From NCBI GenBank assembly GCA_964235575.1, contig CAXSDM010000001.1, forward strand, positions 72,863 to 109,635: a stretch of DNA of 36,773 bases, written 5' to 3'. Positions within the stretch are counted from its first letter, which is position 1. Every line of letters begins with the position of its first letter. The notes under the pieces were generated by a model. It saw only the letters and a list, made by a program, of their open reading frames with translations, was not told where the DNA came from and did not search any database. Of the stretch, positions 1,607 to 29,153 are shown piece after piece. A program made the position numbers and the translations under genes. This DNA comes from an uncultured Acidobacteriaceae bacterium (GTDB lineage: Bacteria > Acidobacteriota > Terriglobia > Terriglobales > Acidobacteriaceae).

Positions 1607-2446
1607 ATGTTCGAAAAGAATAGGCTTCTGGCTATGCTCGAGCGAAAGGAGATTCCGCTCGGTATTCAGGTGTTTACGGGAAGCCCCGAACTCATCGAAG
1701 TGATCGGCGCAACGGGATACGACTTCGTGATGATCGACACGGAACACAGTGGAACAAATGTACGCGCCCTGGAAAACCTGATCCGAACCGCGGAGCTCGC
1801 CGGGCTTTTCCCGTATGTACGCGTCCCCGATCACTCGAACGAAATCGACATCCGTCGCGCCATCGAAGCCGGCGCTGAAGGCATCTTCCTCCCGCTGATC
1901 CGCAGTGCGGCAGACGTACTCGCCGCCGCCGATCACGCGTTCATTCCACCGAAGGGAAAGCGAGGCATTTGCCCAGCCGCGCGTGCAGCGCGTTACAATT
2001 TCCGCCGCTTCCAGGAGTATGCAGATTGGAATAACGCAGAAGTGGCCTTGATCCCGATGATCGAGAACGCCGAAGCCGTGGAGAACATCGATGAGATTTG
2101 CGCTCTGGAAGACGTGAAGATGCTGGTTTTCGCGCCTGGTGACCTGGCGTTTCAACTCGGCGAAAGCACTTCCATGATGCGTGGCCCGAAAGTACAAGCG
2201 GCTTACAAGAAGGTGATGGAAGCGACCAGGCGACATGGTGTCGCCGTCATCGGCGGCCCAGTACTCGATCCAACTGTGGCCGGCTGCAAAAAGGCGCTGG
2301 CAGATGGAGTGACTATCTTCTGTCTCGGTCTGGACACACTGGGATTCCGGAAATTCTGCGAGGGAACCGTTACGACGTTGAACGAGTCGCTCGAAGGAAC
2401 GCAGTACACGCGCCGCCCTGCTCCGGAAAGCGGCTTTCCCGGCTAG
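1607..2446 (+). CDS. HpcH/HpaI-family class II aldolase / citrate-lyase-like enzyme (copy 1)
   Basis: Motifs DFVMIDTEH, VRVP, MIE and APGDL (metal-binding E/D, catalytic R/H). ATG at 1607 follows a GGGAGA RBS. Confidence 0.88.
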   Translation: MFEKNRLLAMLERKEIPLGIQVFTGSPELIEVIGATGYDFVMIDTEHSGTNVRALENLIRTAELAGLFPYVRVPDHSNEIDIRRAIEAGAEGIFLPLIRSAADVLAAADHAFIPPKGKRGICPAARAARYNFRRFQEYADWNNAEVALIPMIENAEAVENIDEICALEDVKMLVFAPGDLAFQLGESTSMMRGPKVQAAYKKVMEATRRHGVAVIGGPVLDPTVAGCKKALADGVTIFCLGLDTLGFRKFCEGTVTTLNESLEGTQYTRRPAPESGFPG

Positions 2447-2483
2447 AACCACTCATAAAAGCAACTCAAAAGGGAGATCCACA

Positions 2484-3020
2484 ATGGTTTCAAAATGGAA
2501 ACGGTATGTCGTAGGGCCTGACGAGAACGGCAAGTCCGCGGTGTTGACGGACGAAGCGACCAACGTGCAGGAGGACCCAGGCATCTTCTGGCGGGCGACT
2601 TTGTGGAGCACGGAAGAAGTGCCCGTAAACAATGCCATTAAGGGCGACCGGGCAGAGGGCCACAAGACGCGTCACCCGCACCCGGGCGGCATGCTGATGC
2701 GCGCTGTTGAGATCCCTCCGGATTCCAAGGAGAAGACCCATCACATCGAACAGCTGAAGAAGCTGCATGCCTCCGTGCAACAAAAACATACGCCCACAGC
2801 GGAAGATCTGGCACGTCACCCCAGCATGCACAGGACGGATACGCTGGATTGCATCGTGTGCGTTCTCGGCGAAATTCACCTCGTCACCGATATCGACGAC
2901 GTCGTGATGCGTCCCGGCGACTCCGTTGTGATTCGGGGCACGAATCACGCCTGGAGCAATCTTACCGACAAGCCCGCACTGCTTGTGGGTTGCATGATGG
3001 ACGCCATCCCTCAACCCTAG
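2484..3020 (+). CDS. Cupin-domain protein (FdeH-like)
   Basis: N-terminal RYVVGPDENGKSAV plus MHRTDTLD..V.GEI and PGDSVV.RGTNHAWSN cupin motifs; GGGAG RBS. Confidence 0.85.
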   Translation: MVSKWKRYVVGPDENGKSAVLTDEATNVQEDPGIFWRATLWSTEEVPVNNAIKGDRAEGHKTRHPHPGGMLMRAVEIPPDSKEKTHHIEQLKKLHASVQQKHTPTAEDLARHPSMHRTDTLDCIVCVLGEIHLVTDIDDVVMRPGDSVVIRGTNHAWSNLTDKPALLVGCMMDAIPQP

Positions 3021-3058: not shown

Positions 3059-3859
3059 ATGACGACATCGCCACGCAAGAATCCGTTCCTCGACAGGCTT
3101 CGTGCCGACGAGCCGACGCTGATGATGGCGATTCGCAGCTCTCGGACGACGGAGATCGTGCGCATCGCCAAGGCGACCGGAAACCACGCTGTCATGGTCG
3201 ACCTGGAGCACAGTGCGATCACCATCGACACGGCAGGCGAGATGTGCGGTGCTGCCGGCGACCTGGGGCTTACGCCTTTCGTGCGCATTCCGGAGCGAGA
3301 TTACGGCATCATCGGCCGTCTTCTCGACTCCGGCGCATTGGGCATCCTTGCTCCACGGATCGAAACGGTCGCGCAGGCCGAAGAACTTAGCCGCGCGTGC
3401 CGCTTCCCGCCGGACGGGCAACGCTCGCAGCTGGCGATGGTGCCGCAATACGGCATGCGCCCGATGCCTGCTTGCGAACTGAACCCCTTGCTGGACGCAA
3501 GCACCATTGTGCAGGTGCTGCTGGAAACTCCGCAGGGCGTTGGGAATGCCGACGCTATCGCAGCCCTGCCGGGTGTCGATGTGCTGAGCATAGGCGCCAA
3601 TGATCTGTGCGCGGAACTCGGCATTCCGGGTCGCTTCGAGGACGTGCGGTTGCGTGAATGCGTTACGGCCGTCGCAGAGGCATGCAAGCGACACGACAAG
3701 CTGTTCATGCTGGGTGGAATCAGCGATCTTGCGATCCTGAAGTCTCTGCGTCCGCTCGGCATTGCGCCGCTCTACCAGACCGGCACAGACACCGACATGC
3801 TGTTCTTTGCCGCCGAACAACGCAGCAAGCGCTTACTGGAGTGGCACGCCGGGGCGTGA
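3059..3859 (+). CDS. HpcH/HpaI-family class II aldolase (copy 2, divergent from copy 1)
   Basis: Motifs VMVDLEH, VRIP, RFPPDGQRS, LLETPQGV.NADAIAALPGVD and IGANDL. Start set at ATG 3059 after GGAG. Confidence 0.88.
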   Translation: MTTSPRKNPFLDRLRADEPTLMMAIRSSRTTEIVRIAKATGNHAVMVDLEHSAITIDTAGEMCGAAGDLGLTPFVRIPERDYGIIGRLLDSGALGILAPRIETVAQAEELSRACRFPPDGQRSQLAMVPQYGMRPMPACELNPLLDASTIVQVLLETPQGVGNADAIAALPGVDVLSIGANDLCAELGIPGRFEDVRLRECVTAVAEACKRHDKLFMLGGISDLAILKSLRPLGIAPLYQTGTDTDMLFFAAEQRSKRLLEWHAGA

Positions 3860-3868
3860 GGTCTAAAG

Positions 3869-4666
3869 CTAGCGTCGAAGCAACGACGACAGCAAGCTGG
3901 AAAGAGCGGAAGTTCCGCCCGGCGACGGCGAAGTTCGTGGCAGCGACATGATCGCGTCCGCTGTCTGCTGGTGGTAGGCCACGGCAGCAGCGTGAGCAGC
4001 CACGACGTCGCGTGCACGAATGGCCGAAACAACGTCCTGACGGTATTTTGCAAGTTGCAACGCGACCTGCCGGCGTAGTTTGTCGGATGCACCGGTCAGC
4101 TCTGCGGCCAACGCGAACTGCACCTCGGCCAGCGAACGGCAAAGAACCGCCAGCAGAGGGTTCTTAGAAGCAGCTGCGATCGCGTTCGTGAAGCGTGTGA
4201 GTGCGGCAGTGATAGCAGCGCTGTTCTTTGACTTCTGCACTTCAACGAGAGCGTCGTTCATCTCGGTCAAGTCGTCGGTGGTGGCATTTTGGGCGGCCAG
4301 TTCGATAGCAAGTATGTTCAGCGCCCGGTACACCGACAGGACCTGCGAAACGTTTAGCTGGTCGATCTGCATCGTAGAGCCGAGCGAAGAGGAGATGAGC
4401 TCATCGGTGTCGGCGGTAACGTAGGCTCCGCTCCCGTGCCGCACTTCGATGAATTGACACATCGCAAGGGCGCGAATAGCTTCTCGCACCGTCGAGATGC
4501 TGACACCATAGATCCCCATCAGTGCTTTTTCGGTTGGGAGCTTGTTGCCGCGGACAAGCTCACGGCTCAGGATCTTCGCCTTGATCACCTGGAAAATGTG
4601 TTCGGCTGCCCGTGTCTGAGGCGCTTTGAGCGGTTCAACCCCTTCAGTTTTCGCGGGTTTCGGCAT
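3869..4666 (-). CDS. GntR/FadR-family transcriptional regulator
   Basis: Winged HTH (LPTEKALMGIYGVSISTVREAIRAL..EVRHGSGAYV) plus an FCD-like C-terminus (AIAAASKNPLL). Probable start MPKPAK. Confidence 0.9.
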   Translation of the reverse strand: MPKPAKTEGVEPLKAPQTRAAEHIFQVIKAKILSRELVRGNKLPTEKALMGIYGVSISTVREAIRALAMCQFIEVRHGSGAYVTADTDELISSSLGSTMQIDQLNVSQVLSVYRALNILAIELAAQNATTDDLTEMNDALVEVQKSKNSAAITAALTRFTNAIAAASKNPLLAVLCRSLAEVQFALAAELTGASDKLRRQVALQLAKYRQDVVSAIRARDVVAAHAAAVAYHQQTADAIMSLPRTSPSPGGTSALSSLLSSLLRR

Positions 4667-4749
4667 TCCTTGGAGTATAGCTTCGGAACGACGCCGGGCT
4701 GGCCTGCAACTCAACTGATCGTGCGAGACTGATTCGCCGCACGGACTGG

Positions 4750-4788
4750 AGTCACTGGTTGACTTCCGGAAGGCGGCACGCTTACAGT
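4750..4788 (+). promoter_or_regulatory. Operator copy 2 (AGTCACTGGTTGACT) overlapping a sigma70-like promoter TTGACT-N18-TACAGT
   Basis: Palindrome at 4750-4764 in the divergent gntR/esterase spacer; -35 at 4759-4764 and -10 at 4783-4788. Confidence 0.65.
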
Positions 4789-4796: not shown

Positions 4797-6290
4797 ATGC
4801 AGAGCGGGACACAGACAAAGGCGCTTGCCACGATTGACAGCGGAGACCTCGCGGGACTGACGAAGGATGGCGTTCACATGTTCTTCGGTATTCCCTACGT
4901 CGCGGCCCCCACGGGCCCTAATCGCTGGAAAGCTCCACAATCTATGCGTCCGTGGGAGGGCGTTCGCGAGGCAAAGGCTTTTGGCGCGCGCTGCCTCCAG
5001 ACGGTTGGCGCTTCGTTTGACTCTCGCGTCACGGAAGAGAGCGAAGACTGCTTGTTCCTCAACGTGTGGACGGCAACGCTCGGCAGTCAGGCCCGGTGCC
5101 CGGTCATCGTGTGGATTCACGGCGGCGGCAACCTGGGTGGAGCGGGCTCCGAAGATGCCACGGACGGCAGCCAGTTGGCCCAGTCTGGCATTGTTGTTGT
5201 TTCCTTCAACTACCGCCTTGGAGCGCTTGGTTTTCTTTCCCATCCATCCATCGGCTCGAACTTTGCTGTTCTCGATCAGATCGCGGCGCTTCGCTGGGTC
5301 CAGCGCAACATCACCGCGTTTGGTGGCGATCCGGACAATGTGACGCTGATGGGCCAGTCGGCAGGAGCGCAAGCTGTAAGAGTTCTGCTGTCCTGTCCCA
5401 CCGCGGATGGTCTCTACCATCGTGCCGTAATGCAGAGTGCCGGCTTCGAAGCTCCGGCTTTTGCCGAAGCCTGGTCTCTGAGCCGCGCGCACGCTGCAGC
5501 GGAAGAGTTGTTCGCGATGCTCGGCAGCAGGGACGTTGCCCAGCTCCAACTGGTGCCAGGGGAAGAACTGAAGAGGGTCTCGCACGAGCTGTCCGGCGTG
5601 ATACCGAAGCCTGGACGCGTGCATACGCCTGCCAATCTCGTCTGGATGCCGGTGCATGACGGGGAACTGGTCACGCGTAGCTCACCGGCGGAGTGGCCCA
5701 TGTCTGTCCCCGTGCTGATGGGGTATATGGCCAATGAGGCTCGCTACTTTATCAAGCCGAATGCGCCTGTCACCACTGAGGTTCTCGAGCGGATGGCCGG
5801 TGCGCTCTGCGGTCCGAAGCGCGATGAAGCTATAGCAGCGCTGCATCAACAGGGTGGCTCCGTCTACGAATCCCTGGAAGAGCTGTTTTCCACGGCTATC
5901 TGGACGGAGCCCGCATACGCTACGCTGCAGCATCTGGCGCTCAGCGGCCACACCGTTTTCTTCTATGTCTTCGGAAGGGAGTCACCCGGCGCACGGGTGA
6001 CTCAGGAGCTCGCGAAACACACCGCGGAGATCCGTTATGTCTTCGGGACTCTGCAGCCTGGTGAGGCATACGATGAGGTTGACCGGAGTATCTCGCATTC
6101 CATGCAACATGCCTGGACCACGTTCGCGCGCACCGGAGTTCCTGCAGGAGAAGATGGCGAGCCGTGGCCCGCATACTCTCCCACATCAGACCTAAGCACG
6201 CAAATTCGAAACAGTGTGGAGAGCGGACATCTTGTCGTGTCACGGCTTGTCACGATTGTCTCGGCACTGCGGCATGCTTCTGAGAGTTGA
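4797..6290 (+). CDS. Type-B carboxylesterase (alpha/beta hydrolase)
   Basis: FFGIPYVAAP, SEDCLFLNVW, WIHGGG oxyanion hole, NYRLG, FGGDPDNVTLMGQSAGA (nucleophile Ser) and HTAEIRYVFG (catalytic His). No obvious signal peptide. Confidence 0.93.
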   Translation: MQSGTQTKALATIDSGDLAGLTKDGVHMFFGIPYVAAPTGPNRWKAPQSMRPWEGVREAKAFGARCLQTVGASFDSRVTEESEDCLFLNVWTATLGSQARCPVIVWIHGGGNLGGAGSEDATDGSQLAQSGIVVVSFNYRLGALGFLSHPSIGSNFAVLDQIAALRWVQRNITAFGGDPDNVTLMGQSAGAQAVRVLLSCPTADGLYHRAVMQSAGFEAPAFAEAWSLSRAHAAAEELFAMLGSRDVAQLQLVPGEELKRVSHELSGVIPKPGRVHTPANLVWMPVHDGELVTRSSPAEWPMSVPVLMGYMANEARYFIKPNAPVTTEVLERMAGALCGPKRDEAIAALHQQGGSVYESLEELFSTAIWTEPAYATLQHLALSGHTVFFYVFGRESPGARVTQELAKHTAEIRYVFGTLQPGEAYDEVDRSISHSMQHAWTTFARTGVPAGEDGEPWPAYSPTSDLSTQIRNSVESGHLVVSRLVTIVSALRHASES

Positions 6291-6328: not shown

Positions 6329-7288
6329 TCAGAACCGGCGAGTCTGCGGTTCCATAGCGGGCTCGGTCAGCCCGCCGAGCCTGGCCTGAAACTCAGGCGA
6401 AGGCCGCAAGGGTGCGCCTTTCGCCGCATCCAGGTGCGCGGACAAGTGTGCACGTGTCTGTGCAGAGGTCTTACGGTAGATGGCGCGGCACAACTCATAC
6501 GCCGCATGACCCGGCCAGTCCTCCGGAAGCAGCACGGCGGGCAGCTGCGGGTCGTGCAGAACAACCCGGCGAAAAGAATGGATTAGCAAAGTCTGCACCA
6601 CGAAGGCATTCGCGGGGCTGATCCTTTCGTGCAGGAGCCGCTCCAGAGGTTGGAACTTGCGAAGAAAGCCGTTGTAATGATCGGCCACGCGCTTCAGGTC
6701 CCAGCATTCACTGACCAGGCGGGCTCCCGGTTTGGTGACGACCCCATCGAGATCGCGTGCCTGCATGACGACGACATCGTCGGCCAGCCGAAATCGTCGC
6801 AAGATCTGGTCGAGGTTCGCTCGGTTCGCCCGTGGGTGGATGAAGACGCCCGGAGATACAAGCCCGTACCCTTCCCACTCCAGTTCCCGGCGAACCTCTG
6901 TCCTCACCGCCACTGAAACCTGAAGCTTGCTGAGGATGACGATCGTCCAGTTCCCATCCCACTCCCTGGGCGGCAACTCGTAGATGCGCCCGTAGGCGTG
7001 CTCCACCCGTTCCCGGCTCCCTTCCGTAAGGGAGTAGAGACTTCTGCGCCCTTCCCTTTGCGATTCGAGCCAGTTCTCCGAAGCCAAACGGAACGCACTT
7101 GTCCGGGCGAGTTGAGAGTTCATCCCGAACGGCGTCAGCAGCGCGATCAACTCACTGAGCCAGATACCCGGGACGTAAGGAAGAAGTGAGTCACCGAAGA
7201 TGGTGACGATCAGCGATTTTGAGCGCGGTGGGTCGCTTGTCAGGGAACTCTTGATCCAGTTCTGAATGCTGTTCGGCTTCGCCGCCAT
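6329..7288 (-). CDS. paaX: Phenylacetyl-CoA-responsive repressor PaaX
   Basis: RSKSLIVTIFGDS, WDGNW, ELEWEGYG and HDPQLPAVLLPEDWPG motifs; divergent from paaA. Confidence 0.95.
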   Translation of the reverse strand: MAAKPNSIQNWIKSSLTSDPPRSKSLIVTIFGDSLLPYVPGIWLSELIALLTPFGMNSQLARTSAFRLASENWLESQREGRRSLYSLTEGSRERVEHAYGRIYELPPREWDGNWTIVILSKLQVSVAVRTEVRRELEWEGYGLVSPGVFIHPRANRANLDQILRRFRLADDVVVMQARDLDGVVTKPGARLVSECWDLKRVADHYNGFLRKFQPLERLLHERISPANAFVVQTLLIHSFRRVVLHDPQLPAVLLPEDWPGHAAYELCRAIYRKTSAQTRAHLSAHLDAAKGAPLRPSPEFQARLGGLTEPAMEPQTRRF

Positions 7289-7336: not shown

Positions 7337-7401
7337 AATACAACGGCTCACAATGTATTACACAATTTATCTTGACAATCTCTATTCTGTACCGATACAA
7401 C
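7337..7401 (+). promoter_or_regulatory. paaX/paaA divergent promoter region with candidate PaaX operator
   Basis: AT-rich spacer with TTGACA at 7372-7377 and TACAAC 18 nt later, an inverted repeat AATACA-N11-TGTATT (7337-7359), and the box AATGTATTACACAATTT (7352-7368). Confidence 0.6.
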
Positions 7402-7438
7402 AATCTACAAGTGAATGGGTGTCCTTTCGGGAGGCAGC

Positions 7439-8431
7439 ATGTACGCACAATTGGTAGACACAGGCGTTTCGAAGGTACGTACAGGCGCGGAACTCAGCCC
7501 GGAAGAGCAGGCCTTTGAAGCCAAGATCGATGCCGGCATCAAGATCGAAGCCAAGGACTGGATGCCCGAAGGCTACCGCAAAACGCTTGTCCGTCAGATT
7601 AGCCAGCATGCGCACTCGGAGATTGTCGGACAGCTGCCTGAAGGTAACTGGATCACGCGCGCTCCCAGCTTGAAGCGCAAATCCATTCTGCTTGCCAAGG
7701 TGCAGGACGAAGCCGGCCATGGGCTCTATCTCTACAGTGCCGCGGAGACGCTGGGCACGGCGCGGGAAAAAATGGTCGACGACCTTCATGCCGGCAAGGC
7801 GAAATACTCCAGCATCTTCAACTACCCGACGCTTACATGGGCGGATATGGGCGCGATCGGCTGGCTGGTCGATGGCTCGGCCATCATCAACCAAATTCCT
7901 TTGTGCCGCTGCTCCTACGGGCCTTACGCGCGTGCGATGGTGCGCGTGTGCAAGGAAGAGTCGTTCCATCAGCGGCAGGGCTACGACATCATGATCCAAC
8001 TGTGCAACGGAACACCGGAGCAGAAAGCGATGGCACAGGATGCGCTCAATCGCTGGTGGTGGCCGTCGCTGATGATGTTCGGGCCGAGCGATGCGGAGTC
8101 GGTCAACAGCGCGCAGTCGGCGCGCTGGGGCATCAAGCTGTTTTCGAACGACGAGTTGCGTCAGAAGATGGTCGACCAGACAGTGCCGCAGGCGGAGTTC
8201 CTGGGCCTTACCGTGCCCGACCCGGACCTCAAGTGGAACGAAGAGCGTGGCCACTACGACTTCGGCGAAATCTACTGGGAAGAGTTCTATAACGTCATCA
8301 AAGGCAACGGGCCCTGCAACAAGGAGCGGCTCGCGACCCGTGTGAAAGCGCATGAAGACGGAGCCTGGTTCCGCGAAGCGTTGATGGCGTATGCCGACAA
8401 ACGCAACATGGCGTCAGCGCAAGCAGCGTAG
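7439..8431 (+). CDS. paaA: Phenylacetyl-CoA 1,2-epoxidase subunit A
   Basis: [30 protein letters not shown] and [11 protein letters not shown] di-iron motifs; GGGAGG RBS. Confidence 0.97.
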
Positions 8432-8463
8432 CGAGCGCCGTATCGCCAGGCGTTACAAGGGAA

Positions 8464-8757
8464 ATGAGAGCCATGGAAAAACCGTCACCACTCTGGGAAG
8501 TCTTCATCCGCAGCCAGCACGGCCTTGCGCACAAGCATGTGGGCAGCCTGCACGCATCGGACGCGCAAATGGCGATCAACAATGCACGCGACGTTTACAC
8601 GCGCCGCAATGAAGGTGTCAGCATCTGGGTAGTTCCTTCGGCAGACATCATAGCCAGCTCGCCGCAGGACAAAGAGCCGTTGTTCGAGCCGGCCAACAGC
8701 AAGGTCTATCGGCACCCTACATTTTTCCCGATGCCTACCGAAGTCAAGCACATCTGA
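8464..8757 (+). CDS. paaB: Phenylacetyl-CoA epoxidase subunit B
   Basis: WEVFIRS.HGL.HKHVGSLHA.D..MA..NARDVYTRRNEGVSIWVV; the start may be at 8473. Confidence 0.97.
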   Translation: MRAMEKPSPLWEVFIRSQHGLAHKHVGSLHASDAQMAINNARDVYTRRNEGVSIWVVPSADIIASSPQDKEPLFEPANSKVYRHPTFFPMPTEVKHI

Positions 8758-8777
8758 AATCTCCCCGAGAGCGGCCC

Positions 8778-10135: not shown

Positions 10136-10168
10136 CGTAACCAGCACGACGACCAGAGCCCAGCCGAA

Positions 10169-11242: not shown

Positions 11243-11249
11243 CCAAACC

Positions 11250-12026: not shown

Positions 12027-12054
12027 CCGACATATCGCTGTGAGGAGCATTCGC

Positions 12055-16476: not shown

Positions 16477-16478
16477 CC

Positions 16479-16934: not shown

Positions 16935-16944
16935 CCAGGTCTTT

Positions 16945-21330: not shown

Positions 21331-21360
21331 TTGTCACCCATTGACTTCACGGAGTAAAGT
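21331..21360 (+). promoter_or_regulatory. Operator copy 3 (TGTCACCCATTGACT) overlapping putative promoter TTGTCA-N18-TAAAGT
   Basis: 21332-21346 lies in the divergent MFS/E1 spacer; its reverse complement AGTCAATGGGTGACA matches copy 1 at 13/15. Confidence 0.65.
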
Positions 21361-21384
21361 TACACCTGCAGAAAGCTCCCACGC

Positions 21385-21401
21385 AATTGTGTAACACAAT
21401 T
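21385..21401. promoter_or_regulatory. Perfect palindrome AATTGTGT-A-ACACAATT (candidate PaaX-type operator)
   Basis: 8-bp arms about 20 nt upstream of the E1 start; 14/17 similar to the box in the paaX/paaA spacer. Confidence 0.6.
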
Positions 21402-21421: not shown

Positions 21422-23506
21422 ATGCCACCGAAGCGTACCCGCAGGAACGTACCTGAAAAGGCGAGCAAGCCCACTGCCGGCAGCGGTTCGTCGCTTTCCG
21501 TCGATTGGCGCCGCGTCGCGAGAACCTTCCTGGTCTCTCGCGCTCTCGATGAGCTGGAGGAAACGACTTTGCTCCCGCAGAAGAAAATTCTGTATCAGTT
21601 CTCTGCGCGCGGCCACGAGCTCGGCCAGATACTTCTGGGCATGAAGCTGGACCAGAAGCACGATGCCGCGAGCGGCTATTACCGCTCTCGACCCTTGCTG
21701 CTGACTCTGGGTCTCAGTGTGCGCGAAGCGCTCGCTGGCGGCATGGCAAAGGCCGGCGGCCTGTGTGACGGGCGGGATATCGGCGTCGTCTTCAACTACC
21801 CCAACGACAACGGCTGCACCTTGCTGCCCATGGCTGGTGGCGTCGGCACGCAGTACACCACCACCGCCGGGTGGGCGCACGCGATTCGCTACCACGCGGA
21901 AACGCTCGGCGACGACTCCTACAAGCGCTCCATGGCAGTGGTTCTGGGTGGTGATGGTTCGGTCGCTACCAATGGTTTCTGGGCCGCGCTCAACATCGCC
22001 ACCGTCCGCAAGCTGCCGATGCTTTTCTTCCTTGAAGACAACGGCTACGGGCTCAGCGTTCCGTCTACCGTGCAAACGCCGGGTGGCAACATGGCCAAAA
22101 ACTTGGCGGCCTTTGGCGACCTTCACATTCTGCACGCAGATACAAGGAACCCGGCGGAAACCGCGCAGGCGATGGATGACGCGGTAGAGTATGTGCGCAG
22201 CGGCAAGGGAGTCGTCCTGCTGCGGCTGGTGATGCCGCGGCTCAGCGGTCACTCCGGCCAGGATACGCAGACGTACAAGTCCAGCGACTTCGTCGATGAA
22301 GAGCGTGCGAAAGATCCGCTGCCGCACCTCCACTCCTTCCTGGTACCGAACACCCTGTCGGCAGAAGAGTGGAGCGCGCTCGAGCGCGACGCGGCTCAGA
22401 TCGTTCAGCAGGGATTGACCGAAGCATTAGCTCTGCCTGAGCCTGAGGCTACCGAGAAAGCCATTGTGCGACACCTGTTTGCCGAGGACGAGCCTGCGGT
22501 CGCACCCTCCACGCCGGCACCGCCCGATCCTGCCCGGACAAACATGCTTACCGCGATTCGCCGCACCATGGAGTCCGAGCTGAAGTTCAACCCGAAGCTG
22601 CTTATCTTCGGGGAAGATGTGGGCCTGAAGGGTGGCGTGCACGCCGCAACCATGGGACTTCAGGCGGAGTTTGGCGCAGATCGTGTGTTTGATTCCAGCT
22701 TGTCCGAAGAAGGCATCATCGGCAACGCCGTGGGCATGGCGCAGGCCGGCCTTCGACCCGTTGCCGAAATTCAGTTTCGGAAATATGCCGAACCCGGTAC
22801 GGAACAACTAAGCGACTGCGGAACCATGCGCTGGCGCACAGCTAACCGCTTCAGCGCGCCCATCGTTGTGCGAATGCCCGGGGGCTTCGGTTCGAAGTGC
22901 GGCGATCCCTGGCACAGCGTTTCGAGCGAGGTCACCTTTGCTCACCAGATGGGTTGGCAGGTCATCTATCCGTCCAACGCCGAAGACGCGACCGGACTAC
23001 TGCGCACCGCGATGCGGAGTCACAACCCAAGCATCTTCTTTGAACACCGCGCGCAGCTTGACTCCTCATGGGCTCGCCGCGCTTACCCCGGCGACAGCTT
23101 TGTGCTGCCGCTGGGCCTGGCGAAAACGGTGCAGGCAGGCACAGACTTGACGATCGTCACCTGGGGCGCCATGGTCGAGCGCTGCCTGCTGGCCTCAACT
23201 CAAGCCGGCGCTTCGGTGGACGTGATTGATCTTCGCACCATCGTTCCGTGGGATCGAGCGACTGTGCTCGCCTCTGTGGCGAAAACGCGCCGCTGCATCG
23301 TAGTGCATGAGGACACGATGACCGGTGGCTTCGGCGCGGAAATCGCCGCAACCATCTCTCGCGAGAGCTTCTTGCAACTCGACGCGCCTGTAGAGCGAAT
23401 GGCTGTCCCCGACATTCCGCTGCCTTATAACGTTGCGCTGCTTGAAACGATTCTACCGACCGTGAGTTCGATCGCAATCCAAATCCGCGCCACACTCGAG
23501 TTCTAA
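21422..23506 (+). CDS. 2-oxoacid dehydrogenase E1, fused alpha+beta (branched-chain/aromatic type)
   Basis: ThDP motif GDGSVATN...EDNGYG and RLSGHS; beta half with FGEDVG, LSEEGIIG, RPVAEIQF, HS, FFEH and IDLRTIVPWD. Confidence 0.92.
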   Translation: MPPKRTRRNVPEKASKPTAGSGSSLSVDWRRVARTFLVSRALDELEETTLLPQKKILYQFSARGHELGQILLGMKLDQKHDAASGYYRSRPLLLTLGLSVREALAGGMAKAGGLCDGRDIGVVFNYPNDNGCTLLPMAGGVGTQYTTTAGWAHAIRYHAETLGDDSYKRSMAVVLGGDGSVATNGFWAALNIATVRKLPMLFFLEDNGYGLSVPSTVQTPGGNMAKNLAAFGDLHILHADTRNPAETAQAMDDAVEYVRSGKGVVLLRLVMPRLSGHSGQDTQTYKSSDFVDEERAKDPLPHLHSFLVPNTLSAEEWSALERDAAQIVQQGLTEALALPEPEATEKAIVRHLFAEDEPAVAPSTPAPPDPARTNMLTAIRRTMESELKFNPKLLIFGEDVGLKGGVHAATMGLQAEFGADRVFDSSLSEEGIIGNAVGMAQAGLRPVAEIQFRKYAEPGTEQLSDCGTMRWRTANRFSAPIVVRMPGGFGSKCGDPWHSVSSEVTFAHQMGWQVIYPSNAEDATGLLRTAMRSHNPSIFFEHRAQLDSSWARRAYPGDSFVLPLGLAKTVQAGTDLTIVTWGAMVERCLLASTQAGASVDVIDLRTIVPWDRATVLASVAKTRRCIVVHEDTMTGGFGAEIAATISRESFLQLDAPVERMAVPDIPLPYNVALLETILPTVSSIAIQIRATLEF

Positions 23507-23514: not shown

Positions 23515-24726
23515 ATGGCCATCATCGACATACGCATGCCTAACGAGGAAAAGGAAGGCACCGAAGCTTCTCTTGGAACGTGGTTCAAAGCGGTAGGCGA
23601 GATGGTGTCCGAGCATGAGCCGCTCGTCGAAATCAACACGGACAAGGTGACTATCGAGATTGCCTCGCCTGCCACCGGTCGCATTGGCTTGCTCATCAAG
23701 CAGGGCGGAGACGCCGTGCTTCCAGGGGATCTGCTGGGTACCATCGAGACCGGCAACACGGTCTCCGCGGCATCTGCCCCGGAGGCTACGGAACAAGTAG
23801 CGCCCGTGTCGCCTGTTGTAGCGGAGGCTTCCGTCAGCAATCGGGACGCGACGTACTCCCCCGCAGTGAGGAAAATGCTCGCCGAGCTTGGGCTAGACCC
23901 AGCATCTATTCCCAAGACGAGCCGCGGCGGCCGTGTAACCCCGCAGGATATAGGCGCATTTCTGAAAGCGGGCGCCACCCCAGCAGCATCTCCGCAGGCG
24001 ACCTCAGCACCCGCCGCCACTCCCGAGGCCGCAGTGGTCGGCAGAAAAGTGCCGCACACACCCATGCGCAAGAGCATTGCCAAGCACATGGTGCAGAGCG
24101 TACAGGCCGCGCCGCACGTCACCTCTGTCTTTGAGGTCGACTTTTACAACGTTCTGGCCGATCGCGCGGCTCGCAAGCAGGCCTCCGCAGAGGCCGACGT
24201 ACCTTCGGTAACGGCCTACATCTTGCGCGCTGCGGTACAGGCGATCAAACTCTTCCCCGAAGTTAACAGCAAGTGGCACGACGCGTTTCTCGAGCAGTTC
24301 GACTACGTTAACTTTGGCGTCGGAACGTCGCTCGAAAATGGCGGCCTTGTAGTCCCGGTTCTCCGCGATACACAGAATATGGACCTCCTTGCGCTCTCGC
24401 AGGCTCTGCGTTCCATGACGAAGAAAGCCCGCGATGGCAAGCTTACCCAAGCGGATATGCAAGGCGGAACATTCACGCTCTCGAATCACGGTGTCGGTGG
24501 CAGTCTTCTTGCCGCGCCCATCATTCTGCCGCAGGGACAGTCGGCCATCCTCGGCACGGGCAAGCTGCAGAAGCGCGTCATCGTGTGCGAAACAGGCGGC
24601 CGCGAGCTCTTCCGCGTTCGGCCGATGATGTACGTCACGCTTACCATCGACCACCGCGTGCTTGATGGCCAGCAGACCAACGGCTTTTTGTCGGAGTTCG
24701 TCAAAGCGCTTGAAACACCCTCATAA
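23515..24726 (+). CDS. Dihydrolipoamide acyltransferase E2
   Basis: Lipoyl motif TDKVT, E3-binding domain (SPAVRKM...GGRVT..DI) and catalytic DHRVLDG. Confidence 0.93.
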   Translation: MAIIDIRMPNEEKEGTEASLGTWFKAVGEMVSEHEPLVEINTDKVTIEIASPATGRIGLLIKQGGDAVLPGDLLGTIETGNTVSAASAPEATEQVAPVSPVVAEASVSNRDATYSPAVRKMLAELGLDPASIPKTSRGGRVTPQDIGAFLKAGATPAASPQATSAPAATPEAAVVGRKVPHTPMRKSIAKHMVQSVQAAPHVTSVFEVDFYNVLADRAARKQASAEADVPSVTAYILRAAVQAIKLFPEVNSKWHDAFLEQFDYVNFGVGTSLENGGLVVPVLRDTQNMDLLALSQALRSMTKKARDGKLTQADMQGGTFTLSNHGVGGSLLAAPIILPQGQSAILGTGKLQKRVIVCETGGRELFRVRPMMYVTLTIDHRVLDGQQTNGFLSEFVKALETPS

Positions 24727-25787: not shown

Positions 25788-28700
25788 CTAGAAGAGCACC
25801 TTGAGCGCGAACTGGGCCTGCCGCGAAGTGCCATTGGTTGAGTTGAAGCTGCCGGCCGCTGGGTTATATCCAACGATCTGGTTGAGCGTTACGGCACCCG
25901 CAGCCGGCGAGCCGGGAGTGTTCGCGGGCGTAGCGGGTGCACCCTGGATGGCGACAAGGTTCGGGAAGCCGAGGTTTGTGTGGTTGAACACATTGAACAG
26001 TTCACCGCGAACTTCCACGCTGATGTTCTCGCCGAGACGAGTGTTCTTCACCAGTGCCATGTCGAGGTTCTTGAAGCCCGGAGCAACAAGCGAATCGCGA
26101 CGTTCATTGCCGATGGTTCCAAGGGGTTGAACCATAAAGGCGCATGGGTTATACCAGTGCGCTTTGTTATGCACGGTTGCCGGAGCCGTGCAGGTGGGGT
26201 TCGCAGCAACGGGTCCGCCGAGGTTTGGATTTCCCACCACGTTGGCTCGTTCGTTCTTGGGAGAGTTGTTGAAGTTCTCGCGATCGAAGCCATCCAGAAC
26301 GTTGTAGGGTGTGCCCGACCGCAGCTGCACGAGCGCTGTCGCTTCCCAGCCGTTTACGAAGCGGTTGTCCCCATGCTTCGGAAGCTGATACACCAGATTC
26401 GCTGTGCCTACATGCCTTGTATCGAACGCCGCAGGTCCGTAGTCTCCACGAGGATGAAACGGATCTTCGACCAACGTATTTCCATTGATCAGCTCAGTGG
26501 CATTCGTCAACGAACTGATGTCCAGGGCCTTCGACCATGTGTAATTCACCTGGAACTGTACCCCGTGGTTCAACGAGCGTACCAGGCTGCTTTGCAGCGA
26601 ATGGTAGTTGGAGGAGCCACCCGACGGATCATAGGCAAGCGAACTGAAATTCGTGTTGCCTCGCACATAGCCGCGCGCTCCCGGAACAGGGAAGTAGCGC
26701 GTTCCGCTGGGCAGAGCCGCAGCCGTGGGATTGAATGGGTCGGCGCATGGGCAGATCTGTGAAACGGGTGGATTTACATCCGTCAGGTAGAACAGATGCC
26801 GTCCAAAGTTACCGACGTACGACACCGTCAACACAGTCGCTTTATCCAGTTTCTGTTGCACTCCAAGACTTGCCTCTGTCTGGAATGGCGTCGTGGTCCC
26901 GTTGTAGAACAGCTCGTTTGAAGCAGTGGGAACACCCACGCGACCACTGAGCGGGTTAGGGAATGGGACAACGCCACCGGCGATCACCTGCAGGTTATAC
27001 GCTCCAGTCAGCAACTGCGGTGCAATGTAGGTACGTGCCTGGATCGCATTGTGGTAAATGCCGACACCGCCTCGGATCGCTGTGCTTCCGTCCCCAGGCG
27101 CGTACGAAAAGCCGAGCCGTGGATCGATGTTCTTCAACGAGGGATTGTTGCTGTAAGGGTGTTGCGACGAGACAAACGCGGGGTCGGTTGCGGGATTTGC
27201 GAGAACAACGAACTTGCCGTTCGCCTCAATGGGGTTTGTTTCAAACTCGTAACGCAGCCCCACGTTGACGGAAAGGTGCGCGTTCACTTTCCAGTCATCC
27301 TGGATATAGGGGCTCACGTCGACTTCTCTGGAATTGCGTTCGCCGTTTGAACCGGGGGCCGCAAACACCAGCGCCGAAGCGCTATCGGTCAGAAAACTGC
27401 TGAGATTGGCGAAAGTATATTGACCGTCGGAGAACAGGTTGATCTGCGCGTTCGTCAACACGGAAGTGACATCCACTCCGAATTGAAGCTGGTGCGACTT
27501 GACCGTGAGATACGCGTCGTCCTGCAGCGCATACCGGTTCTGGATGAAGCGGGTCGGTCCCATAACGCTTGGACCAAAGCCCTGGCTAGCGCTTCCGCTC
27601 GGCAGCAGGCTGGTGATAAACAGGCTGCCGTACTGGCGCCCGGGCAGCAGCTGCAACGCGGCAAAGGTGGGGTCTTTGTACCCCTGGCGTGCGCCAAAGC
27701 CCGTCCGTGTAAAGTGCAACCGCGCCGTGTTCAGAAGCTTCGGGCTGAAGATGTGCTTTTCTTCGATCGTCGCAAAACGATTGCGCTGGATCGATGTTTC
27801 CGGAAATCCTGCTGTCAGAAGCCCTGGGTACGGGTCGACGAGCACAGCGTTGTCGGAAACGTAGCGGAACGCCAGGTTGTCCTTCGACGAAAGATACTGA
27901 TCGACACGCGCCTGGAAGTAGTCTTCGTTCGCGGGGTTCGGTGCGACCGAGGTGAGCCGGCCGGAGCCATCTCCGTTATCCGTTCCGTTGGGCTGTGGGA
28001 AGAGCGCGAGGAACGGTGCAACGGCAGCGTTCACGCCAAAACTCTGCAAATACGGGTTCAGCGACGGGTTTGGAGCTGTGGTCGTCCCTGAAGCCTTGCA
28101 CACAGCCGCATTCGCGACGGTCAGGGTGCATGGTAGAAAGCCGGTGCGCGCGTTCACGTTGGGTACGTTGGATGTCAGCAACTCACCCAATTGTTGACGA
28201 AGTCCTTCGTAGTTCAAAAACCCGAATGTGCGGTCGTGGCGAATCGGAAAGCCGACGCTGCCGCCAAACTGGTTGCGGCGAAAGGATGGCGGCCCACTCG
28301 CCGGATCGAAATAGTTTCGCGCGTCGAAGACGCTGTTGCGAACGAACTCATACACCGACCCATGAACGTTGTTGGTACCCGAGCGTGTCACGGCGTTAAT
28401 CACACTGCCGCTTCCGCCAAACTGTGCCCCATAGACACCCGTGAGGATCTGGAACTCGGCGATGCCATCGATGCCGAGCGAGGTGCCCACAATGCTCGCG
28501 CCAGACCCGCGCGCCCAATACCCCTGTATGTTCGCGCCGTCCAGCAGTTCCGCCTGGCCCTCGGGCCGGGCACCGGAAACCGAGAAGGAAGGGGACCTGC
28601 CATAGATCGAATTCCGGGGCGAACCCGTGGAAGGTTGAACGCCTGGCGCCAGCAAGACCAGTTGCTCGAAGTTGCGTCCATTGAGCGGCAACTCGTGAAT

Positions 28701-29153
28701 CTGCTGCGGGCTGATCAGTGTGCTCTGCTCGCCCGAGGTCGAGTTCACCTCGCTCTGCACATCCGAGCTGACATCCACGGTTGTGCTTTGCGAGCCAGCC
28801 GCAAGCGGAACGTCGACCGTCAGCTGTGCGCCCACCGTCACCTCGATGCCATCTTTCGTTGCGGTACCAAAACCGGAGGAGGTCGCCGTCAATCTGTATC
28901 GGCCGATGTTGACGTCGGGTACCGAGTAGTGCCCGCGCTTGTCCGCAACAGTTGTGCGCACCACGCTCGTTCCGGTATCTGTCAGGGTCAACGTTGCCCC
29001 CGGGATTACCGCGCCCGTCGTGTCGGTGACTGTTCCGTTTAAGGTTCCTGTGCCGAGTTGAGCGTAGAGCGAGACAGAAGCGCTGCCGAAAAGGGTAAGG
29101 AGGAGACCCAGTGTTCCGAGCCAATACTTGGGTGAGCGGTGGGTATATTGCAT
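25788..29153 (-). CDS. TonB-dependent outer-membrane receptor (acidobacterial Oar-like, with carboxypeptidase-regulatory-like N-domain)
   Basis: Signal peptide, GTVTDTTGAVIPGA, LPLNGRNF..L..LAPGV, TRSGTN..HG..YEF.RN, RNQFGG, YIQDDWK and C-terminal RQAQFALKVLF. Start set at MQYTHR. Confidence 0.93.
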   Translation of the reverse strand: MQYTHRSPKYWLGTLGLLLTLFGSASVSLYAQLGTGTLNGTVTDTTGAVIPGATLTLTDTGTSVVRTTVADKRGHYSVPDVNIGRYRLTATSSGFGTATKDGIEVTVGAQLTVDVPLAAGSQSTTVDVSSDVQSEVNSTSGEQSTLISPQQIHELPLNGRNFEQLVLLAPGVQPSTGSPRNSIYGRSPSFSVSGARPEGQAELLDGANIQGYWARGSGASIVGTSLGIDGIAEFQILTGVYGAQFGGSGSVINAVTRSGTNNVHGSVYEFVRNSVFDARNYFDPASGPPSFRRNQFGGSVGFPIRHDRTFGFLNYEGLRQQLGELLTSNVPNVNARTGFLPCTLTVANAAVCKASGTTTAPNPSLNPYLQSFGVNAAVAPFLALFPQPNGTDNGDGSGRLTSVAPNPANEDYFQARVDQYLSSKDNLAFRYVSDNAVLVDPYPGLLTAGFPETSIQRNRFATIEEKHIFSPKLLNTARLHFTRTGFGARQGYKDPTFAALQLLPGRQYGSLFITSLLPSGSASQGFGPSVMGPTRFIQNRYALQDDAYLTVKSHQLQFGVDVTSVLTNAQINLFSDGQYTFANLSSFLTDSASALVFAAPGSNGERNSREVDVSPYIQDDWKVNAHLSVNVGLRYEFETNPIEANGKFVVLANPATDPAFVSSQHPYSNNPSLKNIDPRLGFSYAPGDGSTAIRGGVGIYHNAIQARTYIAPQLLTGAYNLQVIAGGVVPFPNPLSGRVGVPTASNELFYNGTTTPFQTEASLGVQQKLDKATVLTVSYVGNFGRHLFYLTDVNPPVSQICPCADPFNPTAAALPSGTRYFPVPGARGYVRGNTNFSSLAYDPSGGSSNYHSLQSSLVRSLNHGVQFQVNYTWSKALDISSLTNATELINGNTLVEDPFHPRGDYGPAAFDTRHVGTANLVYQLPKHGDNRFVNGWEATALVQLRSGTPYNVLDGFDRENFNNSPKNERANVVGNPNLGGPVAANPTCTAPATVHNKAHWYNPCAFMVQPLGTIGNERRDSLVAPGFKNLDMALVKNTRLGENISVEVRGELFNVFNHTNLGFPNLVAIQGAPATPANTPGSPAAGAVTLNQIVGYNPAAGSFNSTNGTSRQAQFALKVLF

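What the first reader, a model, noticed from the sequence alone, without database searches (positions are those of the whole stretch)
1607..29153. Candidate undescribed upper pathway feeding paa, possibly for phenylpyruvate-derived natural products such as vulpinic/pulvinic acid
Seen: TonB receptor, MFS, type-B carboxylesterase, two HpcH/HpaI enzymes, cupin, SnoaL, GlcG and E1/E2 around a complete paa operon. Established: phenylacetate catabolism needs none of these enzymes, and HpcH/HpaI enzymes perform retro-aldol or beta-keto-acid decarboxylation via a metal-bound 2-oxoacid enolate. Inference: the substrate is a larger ester or lactone that breaks into phenylacetate (activated by PaaK) and phenylpyruvate (oxidised by E1/E2 to phenylacetyl-CoA). 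Vulpinic acid, a lichen methyl ester/butenolide built from two phenylpyruvate units, fits: ester and lactone hydrolysis, then C-C cleavage and decarboxylation, would give those two products. Other candidates are polyporic acid, phenyl-furanones, and tropate or phenyllactate esters. The substrate is a hypothesis only.
Basis: inference. Interest (0 to 1): 0.85.

Follow-up and report, generated by a model that had tools for sequence, protein, structure and literature searches.

The report
Candidate pulvinic-acid breakdown module feeding paa
The genes on both sides of this bacterium's phenylacetate-degradation cluster belong to a module that recurs in many unrelated bacteria and shares one predicted regulator site, and it likely splits a phenyl-bearing lactone or ester, possibly a lichen pigment such as vulpinic acid, into phenylpyruvate and phenylacetate, but the substrate is untested.

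Summary
The genes are there as described, and the flanks form a real unit. An uncharacterised HpcH subfamily (HpcH1) is followed by a StrC-like cupin in 36 of 38 scorable metagenome loci. GlcG, GntR, an esterase or lactonase and transporters often accompany it, and paa or E1/E2 genes lie nearby in 7 of 24 longer loci (0 of 14 sister loci). Two other acidobacterial genomes carry the flank genes beside E1/E2 or paa genes. A palindrome trained only on other loci finds three of its four best genome-wide sites before HpcH1, the esterase and MFS/E1. E1/E2 is a widespread paa-linked, likely phenylpyruvate dehydrogenase (47 of 50 carriers have PaaA, 15 PaaK); this scan noted that part seven times before on other DNA, but not the module. 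Against: HpcH2 is not conserved with it, and three near-complete genomes carry GlcG-HpcH1-cupin without paa. Pulvinic acid + 2 H2O = phenylacetate + phenylpyruvate + CO2 balances without redox, matching the gene set. The one run holding this DNA is labelled lichen metagenome, possibly the source. Upper pathway about 0.65; pulvinic acid class about 0.3. No paper found.

The parts
1552..1568 (.). Predicted GntR operator (GTCAC-N3-GTGAC type palindrome) upstream of HpcH1
   Evidence: Score 14.2 with a matrix trained on 14 non-window sites; third best site in the whole 3.0 Mb genome
1607..2446 (+). HpcH1: class II pyruvate-aldolase-fold enzyme of an uncharacterised subfamily; core of the module; likely decarboxylase or retro-aldolase releasing phenylpyruvate
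   Evidence: PF03328; below HpaI/GarL/RhmA cut-offs; D44, E46, H47, R72, E153 in 120 of 120 homologues and D179 in 119; model pLDDT 94.6, Z 25-29 to SbnG, HpaI, GarL, YfaU and macrophomate synthase
2484..3020 (+). Cupin of the StrC/3ES1 type; core of the module; likely opens or hydrates the lactone, or helps C-C cleavage
   Evidence: PF07883; best structural matches 3ES1 and StrC 8X0U, TM 0.66-0.71; directly downstream of HpcH1 in 36 of 38 scorable loci; H116, D122, H155 invariant in 30 sequences
3059..3859 (+). HpcH2: second HpcH-fold enzyme of a different, larger subfamily; accessory
   Evidence: 918 homologues at E<=1e-40; no orthologue in module loci; one 85% homologue shares a contig length (35129) with a 77% esterase homologue
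3869..4666 (-). GntR/FCD regulator, likely repressor of the module
   Evidence: PF00392 + PF07729; 35-48% homologues beside the module in 7 of 53 metagenome loci, G253, G684 and a Bradyrhizobium plasmid
4749..4765 (.). Predicted GntR operator between gntR and the esterase, overlapping a -35-like box
   Evidence: Score 14.3, second best in the genome; promoter-like site starts at 4759
4797..6290 (+). Type-B carboxylesterase with no evident signal peptide (read from the sequence); GQSAG at 186 and KHTAE at 407
   Evidence: PF00135; best PDB match pNB esterase; motifs; 45-57% orthologues beside HpcH1 in L110, L112, L119-121, L141; 14 of 75 HpcH1 contigs of 4 kb or more share an exact length with an esterase-homologue contig, about 0.6 expected
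6329..7288 (-). paaX repressor
   Evidence: TIGR02277 above cut-off
7350..7425 (.). paaX-paaA promoter region: a palindrome also found before E1 (PaaX-like; label recalled) and a weak copy of the GntR-type site at 7409
7439..20107 (+). paaABCDE-F-Z-G-H-I-K-J-Y, phenylacetyl-CoA catabolic operon
   Evidence: NCBIfam/Pfam; same order at 76-96% identity in G684
20110..21315 (-). MFS transporter divergent from E1
   Evidence: PF07690; 57% orthologue beside HpcH1 in G684:C89; no hit in the 80 E1 loci or the 80 metagenome loci
21331..21401 (.). MFS-E1 intergenic region with a predicted GntR operator (21331-21347) and a PaaX-like palindrome (about 21384-21401)
   Evidence: Score 14.0, fourth best in the genome; held-out locus L107 has a 23.9 site before its E1
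21422..23506 (+). Fused E1 alpha-beta of a paa-linked clade, likely phenylpyruvate dehydrogenase
   Evidence: PF00676/PF02779/PF02780; clade separate from the genome's housekeeping fused E1; 47 of 50 carrier genomes have PaaA and 15 have PaaK
23515..24726 (+). E2 acyltransferase with lipoyl motif and DHR catalytic motif
   Evidence: E3 at G000:C29
24847..25248 (+). SnoaL-like protein
   Evidence: PF13577; 51% orthologue in G684:C89; unrelated small SnoaL/DUF4440 proteins in L109, L115, L121, L126
25283..25711 (+). GlcG/DUF336 protein; core of the module
   Evidence: PF03928; in 26 of 53 orthologue loci; best PDB match EfgA; K59, S118, D125 conserved
25788..29153 (-). Acidobacterial TonB-dependent receptor, likely importer
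   Evidence: PF25183; 54-74% orthologues beside HpcH1 in G253, G684 and L106, against about 23-35% for unrelated paralogues
29220..29236 (.). Weak copy of the operator upstream of the TonB gene, sharing 13 bases with the site before HpcH1
   Evidence: Score 7.9, below the thresholds used; in L106 TonB and HpcH1 diverge from one such site

Best explanation
The flanks encode a mobile module (HpcH1, cupin, GlcG, esterase, SnoaL, MFS, TonB receptor) that shares a predicted GntR operator with E1/E2 and likely works as a water-only upper pathway that splits an imported phenyl-bearing lactone or ester into phenylpyruvate and phenylacetate, with pulvinic-acid-type pigments the most likely single substrate class. 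Proposed order, all inferred: TonB and MFS take up vulpinic acid. The esterase removes the methyl ester. The cupin adds water to the enol-lactone, giving 3,4-dioxo-2,5-diphenyladipate. A C-C hydrolysis (cupin, SnoaL, GlcG or HpcH2 here; a FAH-family enzyme in some relatives) gives phenylacetate and phenyl-oxaloacetate. HpcH1 decarboxylates the latter through a metal-bound phenylpyruvate enolate. PaaK and E1/E2 (with a shared E3) turn both products into phenylacetyl-CoA for the paa operon. Shown: gene content, recurrence, linkage and shared site. Inferred: every reaction and the substrate. The confidence is for the upper-pathway reading; the pulvinic-acid class alone is about 0.3.
For: Conserved core: cupin directly after HpcH1 in 36 of 38 scorable loci, GlcG in 26 of 53. 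Linkage: paa or E1/E2 genes in 7 of 24 orthologue loci of 4 kb or more against 0 of 14 sister-clade loci, in at least 3 separate parts of the tree. G253 island: HpcH1 71%, cupin 76%, GlcG, GntR, TonB 54%, E1 79%, E2, PaaI and the genome's only PaaK. G684:C89: MFS 57%, E2 remnant, HpcH1 71%, cupin 76%, GntR 48%, SnoaL 51%, TonB 74%; its paa, E1/E2 and hpa genes lie on C4, which probably adjoins C89. Operator: three of the top four genome-wide sites lie in this cluster, before HpcH1, the esterase and MFS/E1 (about 3e-6 by a simple binomial); held-out L107 has sites before both E1 and HpcH1; 0 sites in 173 kb of sister loci and 1 in 1.23 Mb of E1 loci. Unrelated ester or lactone hydrolases recur beside the module: type-B esterase, dienelactone hydrolase, SMP-30 lactonase, tannase/feruloyl esterase behind an operator site, enol-lactonase-like. 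Where E1/E2 is missing, other thiamine enzymes for 2-oxo acids stand next to it: IpdC-like in G220, benzoylformate decarboxylase in L118 and L134. HpcH1 keeps the metal and enolate residues and has Gln and Val where GarL has W24 and F174; opening W23 and L216 in YfaU admits larger 2-oxo acids (PMC7610986, passages). Pulvinic acid + 2 H2O balances to phenylacetate + phenylpyruvate + CO2, and the window's flanks hold no oxidoreductase other than E1/E2.
Against: No biochemistry, expression data or paper ties any gene to a substrate. G599, G435 and G220 (95-99% complete) carry GlcG-HpcH1-cupin without PaaA, PaaK or the paa-type E1; only G220's enzyme looks decayed (E46V, D179N). 17 of 24 longer loci show no paa or E1/E2 gene. 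E1/E2 is explained by phenylalanine catabolism alone. G253 has no close orthologue of the esterase (best 39%) and no operator site reaching 13 in its island. The window's three sites (14.0-14.3) score below all 14 training sites (17.9-27.1). The Trp-to-Gln change is also in 21 of 21 rows of the sister set, nearly all from loci without the cupin, and the L216 position aligns ambiguously (G217, P218 or L220). Named carriers include a root-nodule Bradyrhizobium plasmid and Cupriavidus, Caballeronia and Pseudomonas, so the substrate cannot be lichen-only. DUF336 proteins are linked to aldehydes (PMC8153426, passages), and the pulvinic route makes none. Some loci add monooxygenases.
Confidence: 0.62

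Rival explanations
1. Same architecture, but the substrate is an aldol-type dimer of phenylpyruvate (xenofuranone or butyrolactone type, 3-hydroxy-4-aryl-5-benzyl butenolides). Lactone hydrolysis gives a 4-hydroxy-2-oxo acid, HpcH1 does a textbook retro-aldol to phenylpyruvate plus phenylacetaldehyde (or a second phenylpyruvate), and GlcG handles the aldehyde.
For: Retro-aldol of 4-hydroxy-2-oxo acids is the family's established reaction (PMC7610986, passages). The balance closes with one water. GlcG keeps K59, S118 and D125, matching EfgA's formaldehyde pocket K57/S114/D121, and stays with HpcH1-cupin where E1 is absent.
Against: The window has no free aldehyde dehydrogenase to make phenylacetate; the cupin would have no clear job; these compounds are not typical lichen products (recalled).
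Confidence: 0.17
2. The GlcG-HpcH1-cupin core is mainly a detoxification cassette that disarms an antimicrobial aromatic compound; linkage to paa is a secondary gain that lets some carriers eat the products.
For: Core without paa in 3 of the 5 other genomes tested, often beside insertion sequences and TetR regulators; on a conjugative plasmid; patchy distribution (3 of 400 order genomes).
Against: Import systems (TonB, aromatic acid:H+ symporter-like MFS, outer-membrane channel) sit behind the operator in many loci, which fits uptake for growth. This reading is compatible with the best explanation on chemistry and differs on purpose.
Confidence: 0.2
3. The substrate is a terphenylquinone (polyporic acid) or a phenyl-pyrone or flavonoid remnant, cleaved to two phenylpyruvates or one arylpyruvate.
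For: Polyporic acid + 2 H2O = 2 phenylpyruvate. Cupins IfcD1/D2 act on an aryl-pyranone in isoflavone catabolism (PMC11069340, passages). G684 links the module to hpa genes as well.
Against: It does not explain the esterase or the repeated PaaK neighbour; the ifc paper's main text mentions no aldolase (0 hits); kinship of IfcD to this cupin was not tested.
Confidence: 0.13
4. The island is a patchwork: paa plus E1/E2 serve phenylalanine catabolism, and the HpcH-cupin genes serve an unrelated, for example sugar-acid, pathway that landed beside it.
For: E1/E2 accompanies paa in many phyla without the module; database names call HpcH1 RhmA or GarL; the island is bounded by an IS110 remnant and a LysR remnant.
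Against: Shared operator before E1 and HpcH1 in the window and in L107; repeated independent linkage; HpcH1 scores about 100 bits against cut-offs of 369-441 for HpaI/GarL/RhmA; sugar-acid dehydratase genes appear near only one locus (L115).
Confidence: 0.1

Closest known systems
Peripheral routes of the phenylacetyl-CoA catabolon (styrene, phenylethylamine, tropate/atropine; recalled)
   Same: An upper module converges on phenylacetyl-CoA and is joined to a complete paa operon.
   Different: Those routes use oxygenases or dehydrogenases through phenylacetaldehyde (recalled); this module has a hydrolase, a cupin, an HpcH enzyme and a DUF336 protein and enters by both PaaK and E1/E2.
HpcH/HpaI class II pyruvate aldolases (HpaI, GarL, RhmA/YfaU), SbnG citrate synthase and macrophomate synthase
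   Same: Same fold (Z 25-29, rmsd 2.2-2.7 A over about 240 residues) and the same Arg, His, Glu and Asp catalytic set.
   Different: 22-32% identity; below all equivalog cut-offs; Gln for the pocket Trp, Met for the conserved Gln, a GGP motif, and invariant R84, R248 and R269 not shared by the sister group; always paired with a cupin.
StrC/VirC/PaltE fungal cupins (PDB 8X0U) and Novosphingobium 3ES1
   Same: Best sequence and structure matches. StrC is an aromatase working by dehydration (PMC13463297, passages).
   Different: 23-26% identity; bacterial, in a catabolic setting, with a helical insertion at residues 84-111; direction and substrate unknown.
PglB/PglC of Streptomyces pristinaespiralis
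   Same: A pyruvate-dehydrogenase-like complex suggested to convert phenylpyruvate to phenylacetyl-CoA (PMC7089894, passages).
   Different: Split alpha and beta genes in a biosynthetic operon; here fused, with its own E2, in catabolic paa clusters of several phyla. Kinship was not tested.
ifc isoflavone cluster of Variovorax (and fde naringenin cluster)
   Same: Bacterial breakdown of an aromatic natural product in which cupins act on a ring-opened aryl-pyranone (PMC11069340, passages).
   Different: Starts with an FAD monooxygenase and a dioxygenase; aldolase, heme and phenylacet- each have 0 hits in the main text.
DUF336 proteins EfgA, GlcG, PduO-C, NahX, HbpS
   Same: Window GlcG matches all five in PDB and keeps the Lys/Ser/Asp pocket.
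   Different: No enzymatic role in aromatic catabolism was found in the passages read; here it is a regular partner of HpcH1-cupin.

Membership tests
Aerobic paa (phenylacetyl-CoA) cluster | paaABCDE epoxidase, paaG, paaZ, paaF/H/J, paaK | tested here: met
   A-E, G, Z, K, I, X above cut-off; H and Y just below; F below the PaaF cut-off but an enoyl-CoA hydratase in place; same order in G684
HpcH/HpaI aldolase fold family (PF03328) | TIM barrel with Arg, His-Glu and metal-binding Glu/Asp | tested here: met
HpaI, GarL or RhmA equivalogs | Score above the NCBIfam cut-off | tested here: not met
   HpcH1 79-107 bits and HpcH2 62-78 bits against 369-441
HpcH enzyme acting on phenylpyruvate | Enlarged C3 pocket | tested here: inconclusive
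   Trp to Gln and Phe to Val seen, but Gln is shared with the sister set and the Leu216 register is uncertain
HpcH enzyme acting on phenylpyruvate | Measured enolisation, decarboxylation or retro-aldol activity | not testable with these tools
   needs assay
StrC-type cupin | Fold and HRTxTxD / GTxHxW motifs | tested here: met
StrC-type cupin | Aromatase (dehydratase) activity | not testable with these tools
   needs assay
2-oxoacid dehydrogenase complex | E1 with GDG motif, E2 with lipoyl-lysine and DHR motifs, an E3 in the genome | tested here: met
Phenylpyruvate dehydrogenase (PglB/C-like function) | Inherited with the paa epoxidase, often without PaaK, beside aminotransferases | tested here: met
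   PaaA 47 of 50, PaaK 15 of 50; aminotransferases in 9 and 5 of 80 loci; many carriers are incomplete assemblies
Phenylpyruvate dehydrogenase (PglB/C-like function) | Measured phenylacetyl-CoA formation | not testable with these tools
   needs assay
ifc/fde flavonoid clusters | A-ring FAD monooxygenase plus VOC dioxygenase with the cupin | tested here: not met
   No VOC protein in 1607-29153; the FAD monooxygenase at 139-1128 lies beyond an IS remnant and was not found in the module loci
Type-B carboxylesterase | GxSxG nucleophile with Glu and His triad positions | tested here: met
   GQSAG 186, ANE near 313, HT 408 align with pNB esterase

The most novel reading that the evidence does not exclude
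This is a bacterial pathway for eating or disarming pulvinic-acid pigments (vulpinic and pulvinic acid of lichens, and hydroxylated relatives from fungi through hpa). It undoes the two-phenylpyruvate skeleton with water alone, using a cupin enol-lactone hydratase, a C-C hydrolase and an HpcH-fold phenyl-oxaloacetate decarboxylase, and it has spread between Acidobacteria, Proteobacteria and other groups on mobile DNA.
Probability: 0.3. Interest if true: 0.85.

Novelty: new variant of a known kind. Interest (0 to 1): 0.7.

Why it matters
How bacteria living on lichens and fungi cope with their hosts' aromatic defence compounds is often asserted but, in the searches run here, not tied to genes. 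This cluster gives a short list of small soluble enzymes, a regulator with a predicted site and a few purchasable candidate substrates, so the question can be tested directly. It would also assign functions to three poorly understood families at once: an HpcH subfamily that may use a bulky aryl donor (useful for biocatalysis), bacterial StrC-type cupins and DUF336 proteins. Even if the substrate guess is wrong, the HpcH1-cupin-GlcG module with its operator is a widespread uncharacterised catabolic unit.

Tried and rejected
Paper searches found nothing on the module: HpcH + cupin + carboxylesterase + phenylacetate + phenylpyruvate, any 4 of 5, 0 papers; GlcG terms, 1 unrelated paper; vulpinic acid + degradation + bacteria, 36 papers of which 25 were listed, none on a pathway by title or abstract start; phenylpyruvate dehydrogenase + phenylacetyl-CoA, 0; two wider E1 searches, 0 and 1 not opened; NahX + aldehyde, 1 irrelevant. 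The library lacks most subscription papers, and no supplements were opened. Earlier scan notes hold nothing on HpcH1, the cupin, this stretch or pulvinic catabolism. No RNA holder was listed, so expression is open. Plasmids: one hit for HpcH1 and cupin, none for the esterase at 1e-90. No long terminal repeat came up among the 20 largest repeat families, and no tRNA gene lies on the contig; the 13-base match at the two ends is better read as two operators. The idea that the open pocket is special to this module was weakened by the sister set. The idea that G220 shows a working paa-free route was weakened by its E46V/D179N changes and IS insertions. An exact join of G684's two contigs was not found: they overlap by 44 bases at 91% identity inside hpaD. 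The 78-row E1 tree did not finish; a 33-row FastTree was used. No Atlas look-up and no HpcH1-cupin complex prediction were obtained, so distant cupin look-alikes and any physical pairing are open. Tropate esters were set aside because that route needs a dehydrogenase (2 H in the balance), which the flanks lack.

Full report
Observation. The paa operon is complete in content; PaaH and PaaY fall just under, and PaaF well under, their own cut-offs. The relatives by E1 and TonB type are Acidobacteriaceae. PaaA was found in only 2 of 250 other genomes of the family. The cluster sits between an IS110 remnant and a LysR remnant, and its genes have lower GC3 than the host's (0.73 for 19 genes, 0.78 for 1189), so it is likely an acquired island.

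E1/E2 is a general companion of paa. The 80 best genomic loci of the fused E1 span Acidobacteriota, Gemmatimonadota, Calditrichota, Rhodothermota, Bdellovibrionota and Gammaproteobacteria. Within 10 kb, 53 have a PaaG hit, 47 PaaH and 7 PaaK; none has HpcH1, HpcH2, cupin, esterase, MFS or SnoaL, and one has GlcG. I tested 50 of the 80 genomes: 47 have PaaA and 15 PaaK, 12 over the cut-off (one of the 50, G257, is flagged unpublished; many are incomplete assemblies). An IlvE-type aminotransferase lies beside E1 in 9 of 80 loci and a class I aminotransferase in 5. In a 33-row FastTree this E1 is a clade apart from the housekeeping fused E1. E3 is elsewhere in G000. The inference is a phenylpyruvate dehydrogenase; PglB/C of S. 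pristinaespiralis is the suggested precedent (PMC7089894, passages; lead from earlier scan notes). Seven earlier notes of this scan reached the same reading on other genomes. I had these counts before reading them; they are not independent support. Only 1 of the 50 genomes has HpcH1, so E1/E2 alone does not argue for a natural-product pathway.

The module. HpcH1 has 237 homologues at E<=1e-30, including named Bradyrhizobium, Cupriavidus, Caballeronia, Govanella, Pseudomonas and Chelatococcus proteins. A metagenome scan returned 80 loci; 53 hold an orthologue of 50% or more and 27 a more distant sister enzyme. Among the 53, the cupin is in 41, GlcG in 26, the esterase in 7 and GntR in 7; among the 27, in 0, 1, 0 and 0. 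Of 38 loci with enough HpcH1 and downstream DNA to score, 36 have the cupin directly behind it. paa or E1/E2 genes at 45% or more occur in 7 of 24 orthologue loci of 4 kb or more and 0 of 14 sister loci (Fisher p=0.033; kin are not independent, and L127-129 are copies). The paa/E1-linked rows need 4 changes on the HpcH1 tree, at least 3 forced by strong branches. Independently, 14 of 75 HpcH1 homologue contigs of 4 kb or more have the same length as an esterase homologue contig, against about 0.6 by chance; a shared length is a proxy for a shared contig.

Two genomes join both flanks. G253 has an island with HpcH1 (71%), cupin (76%), a frameshifted GlcG, GntR, a 54% TonB orthologue, a FAH hydrolase, a flavin monooxygenase, a second E1/E2, PaaI and the genome's only PaaK. 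G684:C89 holds MFS (57%), an E2 remnant, HpcH1 (71%), cupin (76%), GntR (48%), SnoaL (51%) and TonB (74%) in 9.6 kb. Its paa-E1-E2 run on C4 has the window's order at 66-96% identity, followed by hpa genes. The two contigs overlap inside hpaD by 44 bases at 91%, so the join is likely, not shown. In L106 TonB and HpcH1 are divergent neighbours, and in L107 the order is paaI-E1-E2-HpcH1-cupin.

A shared operator. Promoters of GntR-bearing loci share the palindrome AGTCAC-N3-GTGACT (that first look included window regions). A matrix built from 14 sites of non-window loci only was run over all 3.0 Mb of G000. Ranks 2, 3 and 4 are window 4749 (before the esterase, over a -35-like box), 1552 (before HpcH1) and 21331 (between MFS and E1); rank 1 is on another contig, and a weak site precedes paaA. 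Of 45 held-out loci 12 have a site of 13 or more; L107 has them before both E1 and HpcH1. In training loci further sites lie before the esterase (L112) and the tannase (L115). Controls gave 0 sites in 173 kb and 1 in 1.23 Mb. G684 has sites of 17.8, 12.8 and 12.5 before HpcH1, MFS/E2 and E1. Limits: the window's sites score under all training sites, G253's island has none reaching 13, and binding by GntR is inferred from co-occurrence (TetR- and LysR-type loci mostly lack it). A second palindrome lies before both paaA and E1, so E1 is likely under dual control.

Against a fixed pathway. HpcH2 belongs to another subfamily (918 homologues) with no orthologue in the module loci. G253 lacks a close esterase orthologue. 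HpcH1 was found in 3 of 400 order genomes and 3 of 150 relatives of G253 (G604 has the same coordinates as G599). Of five other genomes tested, G253 and G684 have PaaA, PaaK and the paa-type E1; G599, G435 and G220 (95-99% complete) have none. G220's HpcH1 has E46V and D179N and the locus is broken by an IS, but G599 and G435 keep the Asp-x-Glu-His motif.

Chemistry. HpcH1 folds as a class II pyruvate aldolase (pLDDT 94.6; Z 25-29) and keeps D44, E46, H47, R72, E153 and D179. Against GarL it has Q21 for W24 and V174 for F174. In YfaU, W23V and L216A admit larger 2-oxo acids (PMC7610986, passages). HpcH2 has small residues at the same places. This is modest support, since the sister set shares Q21 and the L216 register is unsure. 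Oxaloacetate decarboxylation by HpaI and macrophomate synthase is recalled, not checked. The cupin's nearest structures are 3ES1 and StrC, a dehydrating aromatase (PMC13463297, passages); cupins also act on an aryl-pyranone in isoflavone catabolism (PMC11069340, passages). GlcG is closest to EfgA and keeps its aldehyde pocket residues (PMC8153426, passages). Neighbours in other loci fall into two recurring jobs. One is ester or lactone hydrolysis, by five or more unrelated families, in 10 of the 24 longer loci by my reading. The other is thiamine-dependent handling of a 2-oxo acid (E1/E2, IpdC-like, benzoylformate decarboxylase, pyruvate-oxidase-like). With formulae from memory, vulpinic acid + 3 H2O, pulvinic acid + 2 H2O and pulvinic dilactone + 3 H2O all balance to phenylacetate + phenylpyruvate + CO2 (+ methanol), which uses both PaaK and E1/E2. 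Polyporic acid gives two phenylpyruvates, and xenofuranone-type lactones give phenylpyruvate + phenylacetaldehyde. The pulvinic route best explains esterase, PaaK, E1/E2 and the lack of redox enzymes together; the aldol-dimer route best explains GlcG and textbook HpcH chemistry.

Habitat. One run holds 96% of the sampled words of window 1607-6290 and is labelled lichen metagenome. It may be the source of the assembly, so it is not independent support, and the host's chemistry is not known here. A root-nodule Bradyrhizobium plasmid carries GntR-GlcG-HpcH1-cupin-MFS with no paa gene within 20 kb, so the substrate class must reach soils and plants; hydroxylated fungal relatives feeding hpa would fit G684 (inference).

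Verdict. The pulvinic-acid class is the best single guess (about 0.3). Ten paper searches found no description of the module or of bacterial pulvinic-acid catabolism, in a library that lacks most subscription papers; five papers were read as passages only, and no supplements were opened. It is a new variant of a known kind, a new feeder of the phenylacetyl-CoA pathway built from uncharacterised enzyme subfamilies. Interest 0.7.

Noticed in passing
window 139-1128 and L001:19207-19893: FAD-dependent monooxygenase with a weak Tet(X) match (88 bits, cut-off 750) next to a TetR-like gene, just left of the IS110 remnant; not found in the module loci.
   Followed up: partly
window 1133-1489 and 29223-29537: IS110 transposase remnant and LysR HTH remnant bound the cluster; island genes have lower GC3 (median 0.73, 19 genes) than the host (0.78, 1189 genes).
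   Followed up: yes
L001:14030-17351: Three genes that read like nadA, nadC and a cysteine desulfurase in a high-GC stretch, and a Tad-pilus-like operon at 3459-11001, upstream of the window (names from reading the ORFs, not from a family scan).
   Followed up: no
L011:9223-12004 (G253): G253 has two copies of the paa-type E1; the copy nearer its main paa cluster has a divergent GlcG (64%) but no HpcH1, so GlcG may also serve E1.
   Followed up: partly
L201 and L202-L204 (G684): One probable island joins paa, E1/E2, an hpa (4-hydroxyphenylacetate) set, a second HpcH with an SMP-30 lactonase and a 55% TonB homologue, and the module; paaY and E2 remnants beside the module suggest a duplicated, decayed paa end.
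   Followed up: partly
L131-L135, L142, L145: High-GC loci run dienelactone hydrolase, TetR, GlcG, HpcH1, cupin and, where the contig reaches, an RdmE-like FAD monooxygenase and a benzoylformate decarboxylase-like gene; they lack the GntR-type operator.
   Followed up: partly
L141:6126-10846: Two HpcH1-clade paralogues in one operon with esterase, enol-lactonase-like hydrolase, cupin, VOC, GlcG, a P450 fragment, dienelactone hydrolase and paa genes; a good second system for assays.
   Followed up: partly
P0179, P0222, P0231: Fungal proteins (Bifiguratus, Umbelopsis and one other) are 52-54% identical to the esterase, suggesting gene exchange or contamination.
   Followed up: no
window 30093-33732: Membrane and ABC-ATPase-like genes and a small regulator, typical host genes by coding score, right of the island.
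   Followed up: no
L112:1538-2987 and 6615-7514: An autoinducer synthase/LuxR pair and an AidB-like lactonase lie beside the module in one locus.
   Followed up: no
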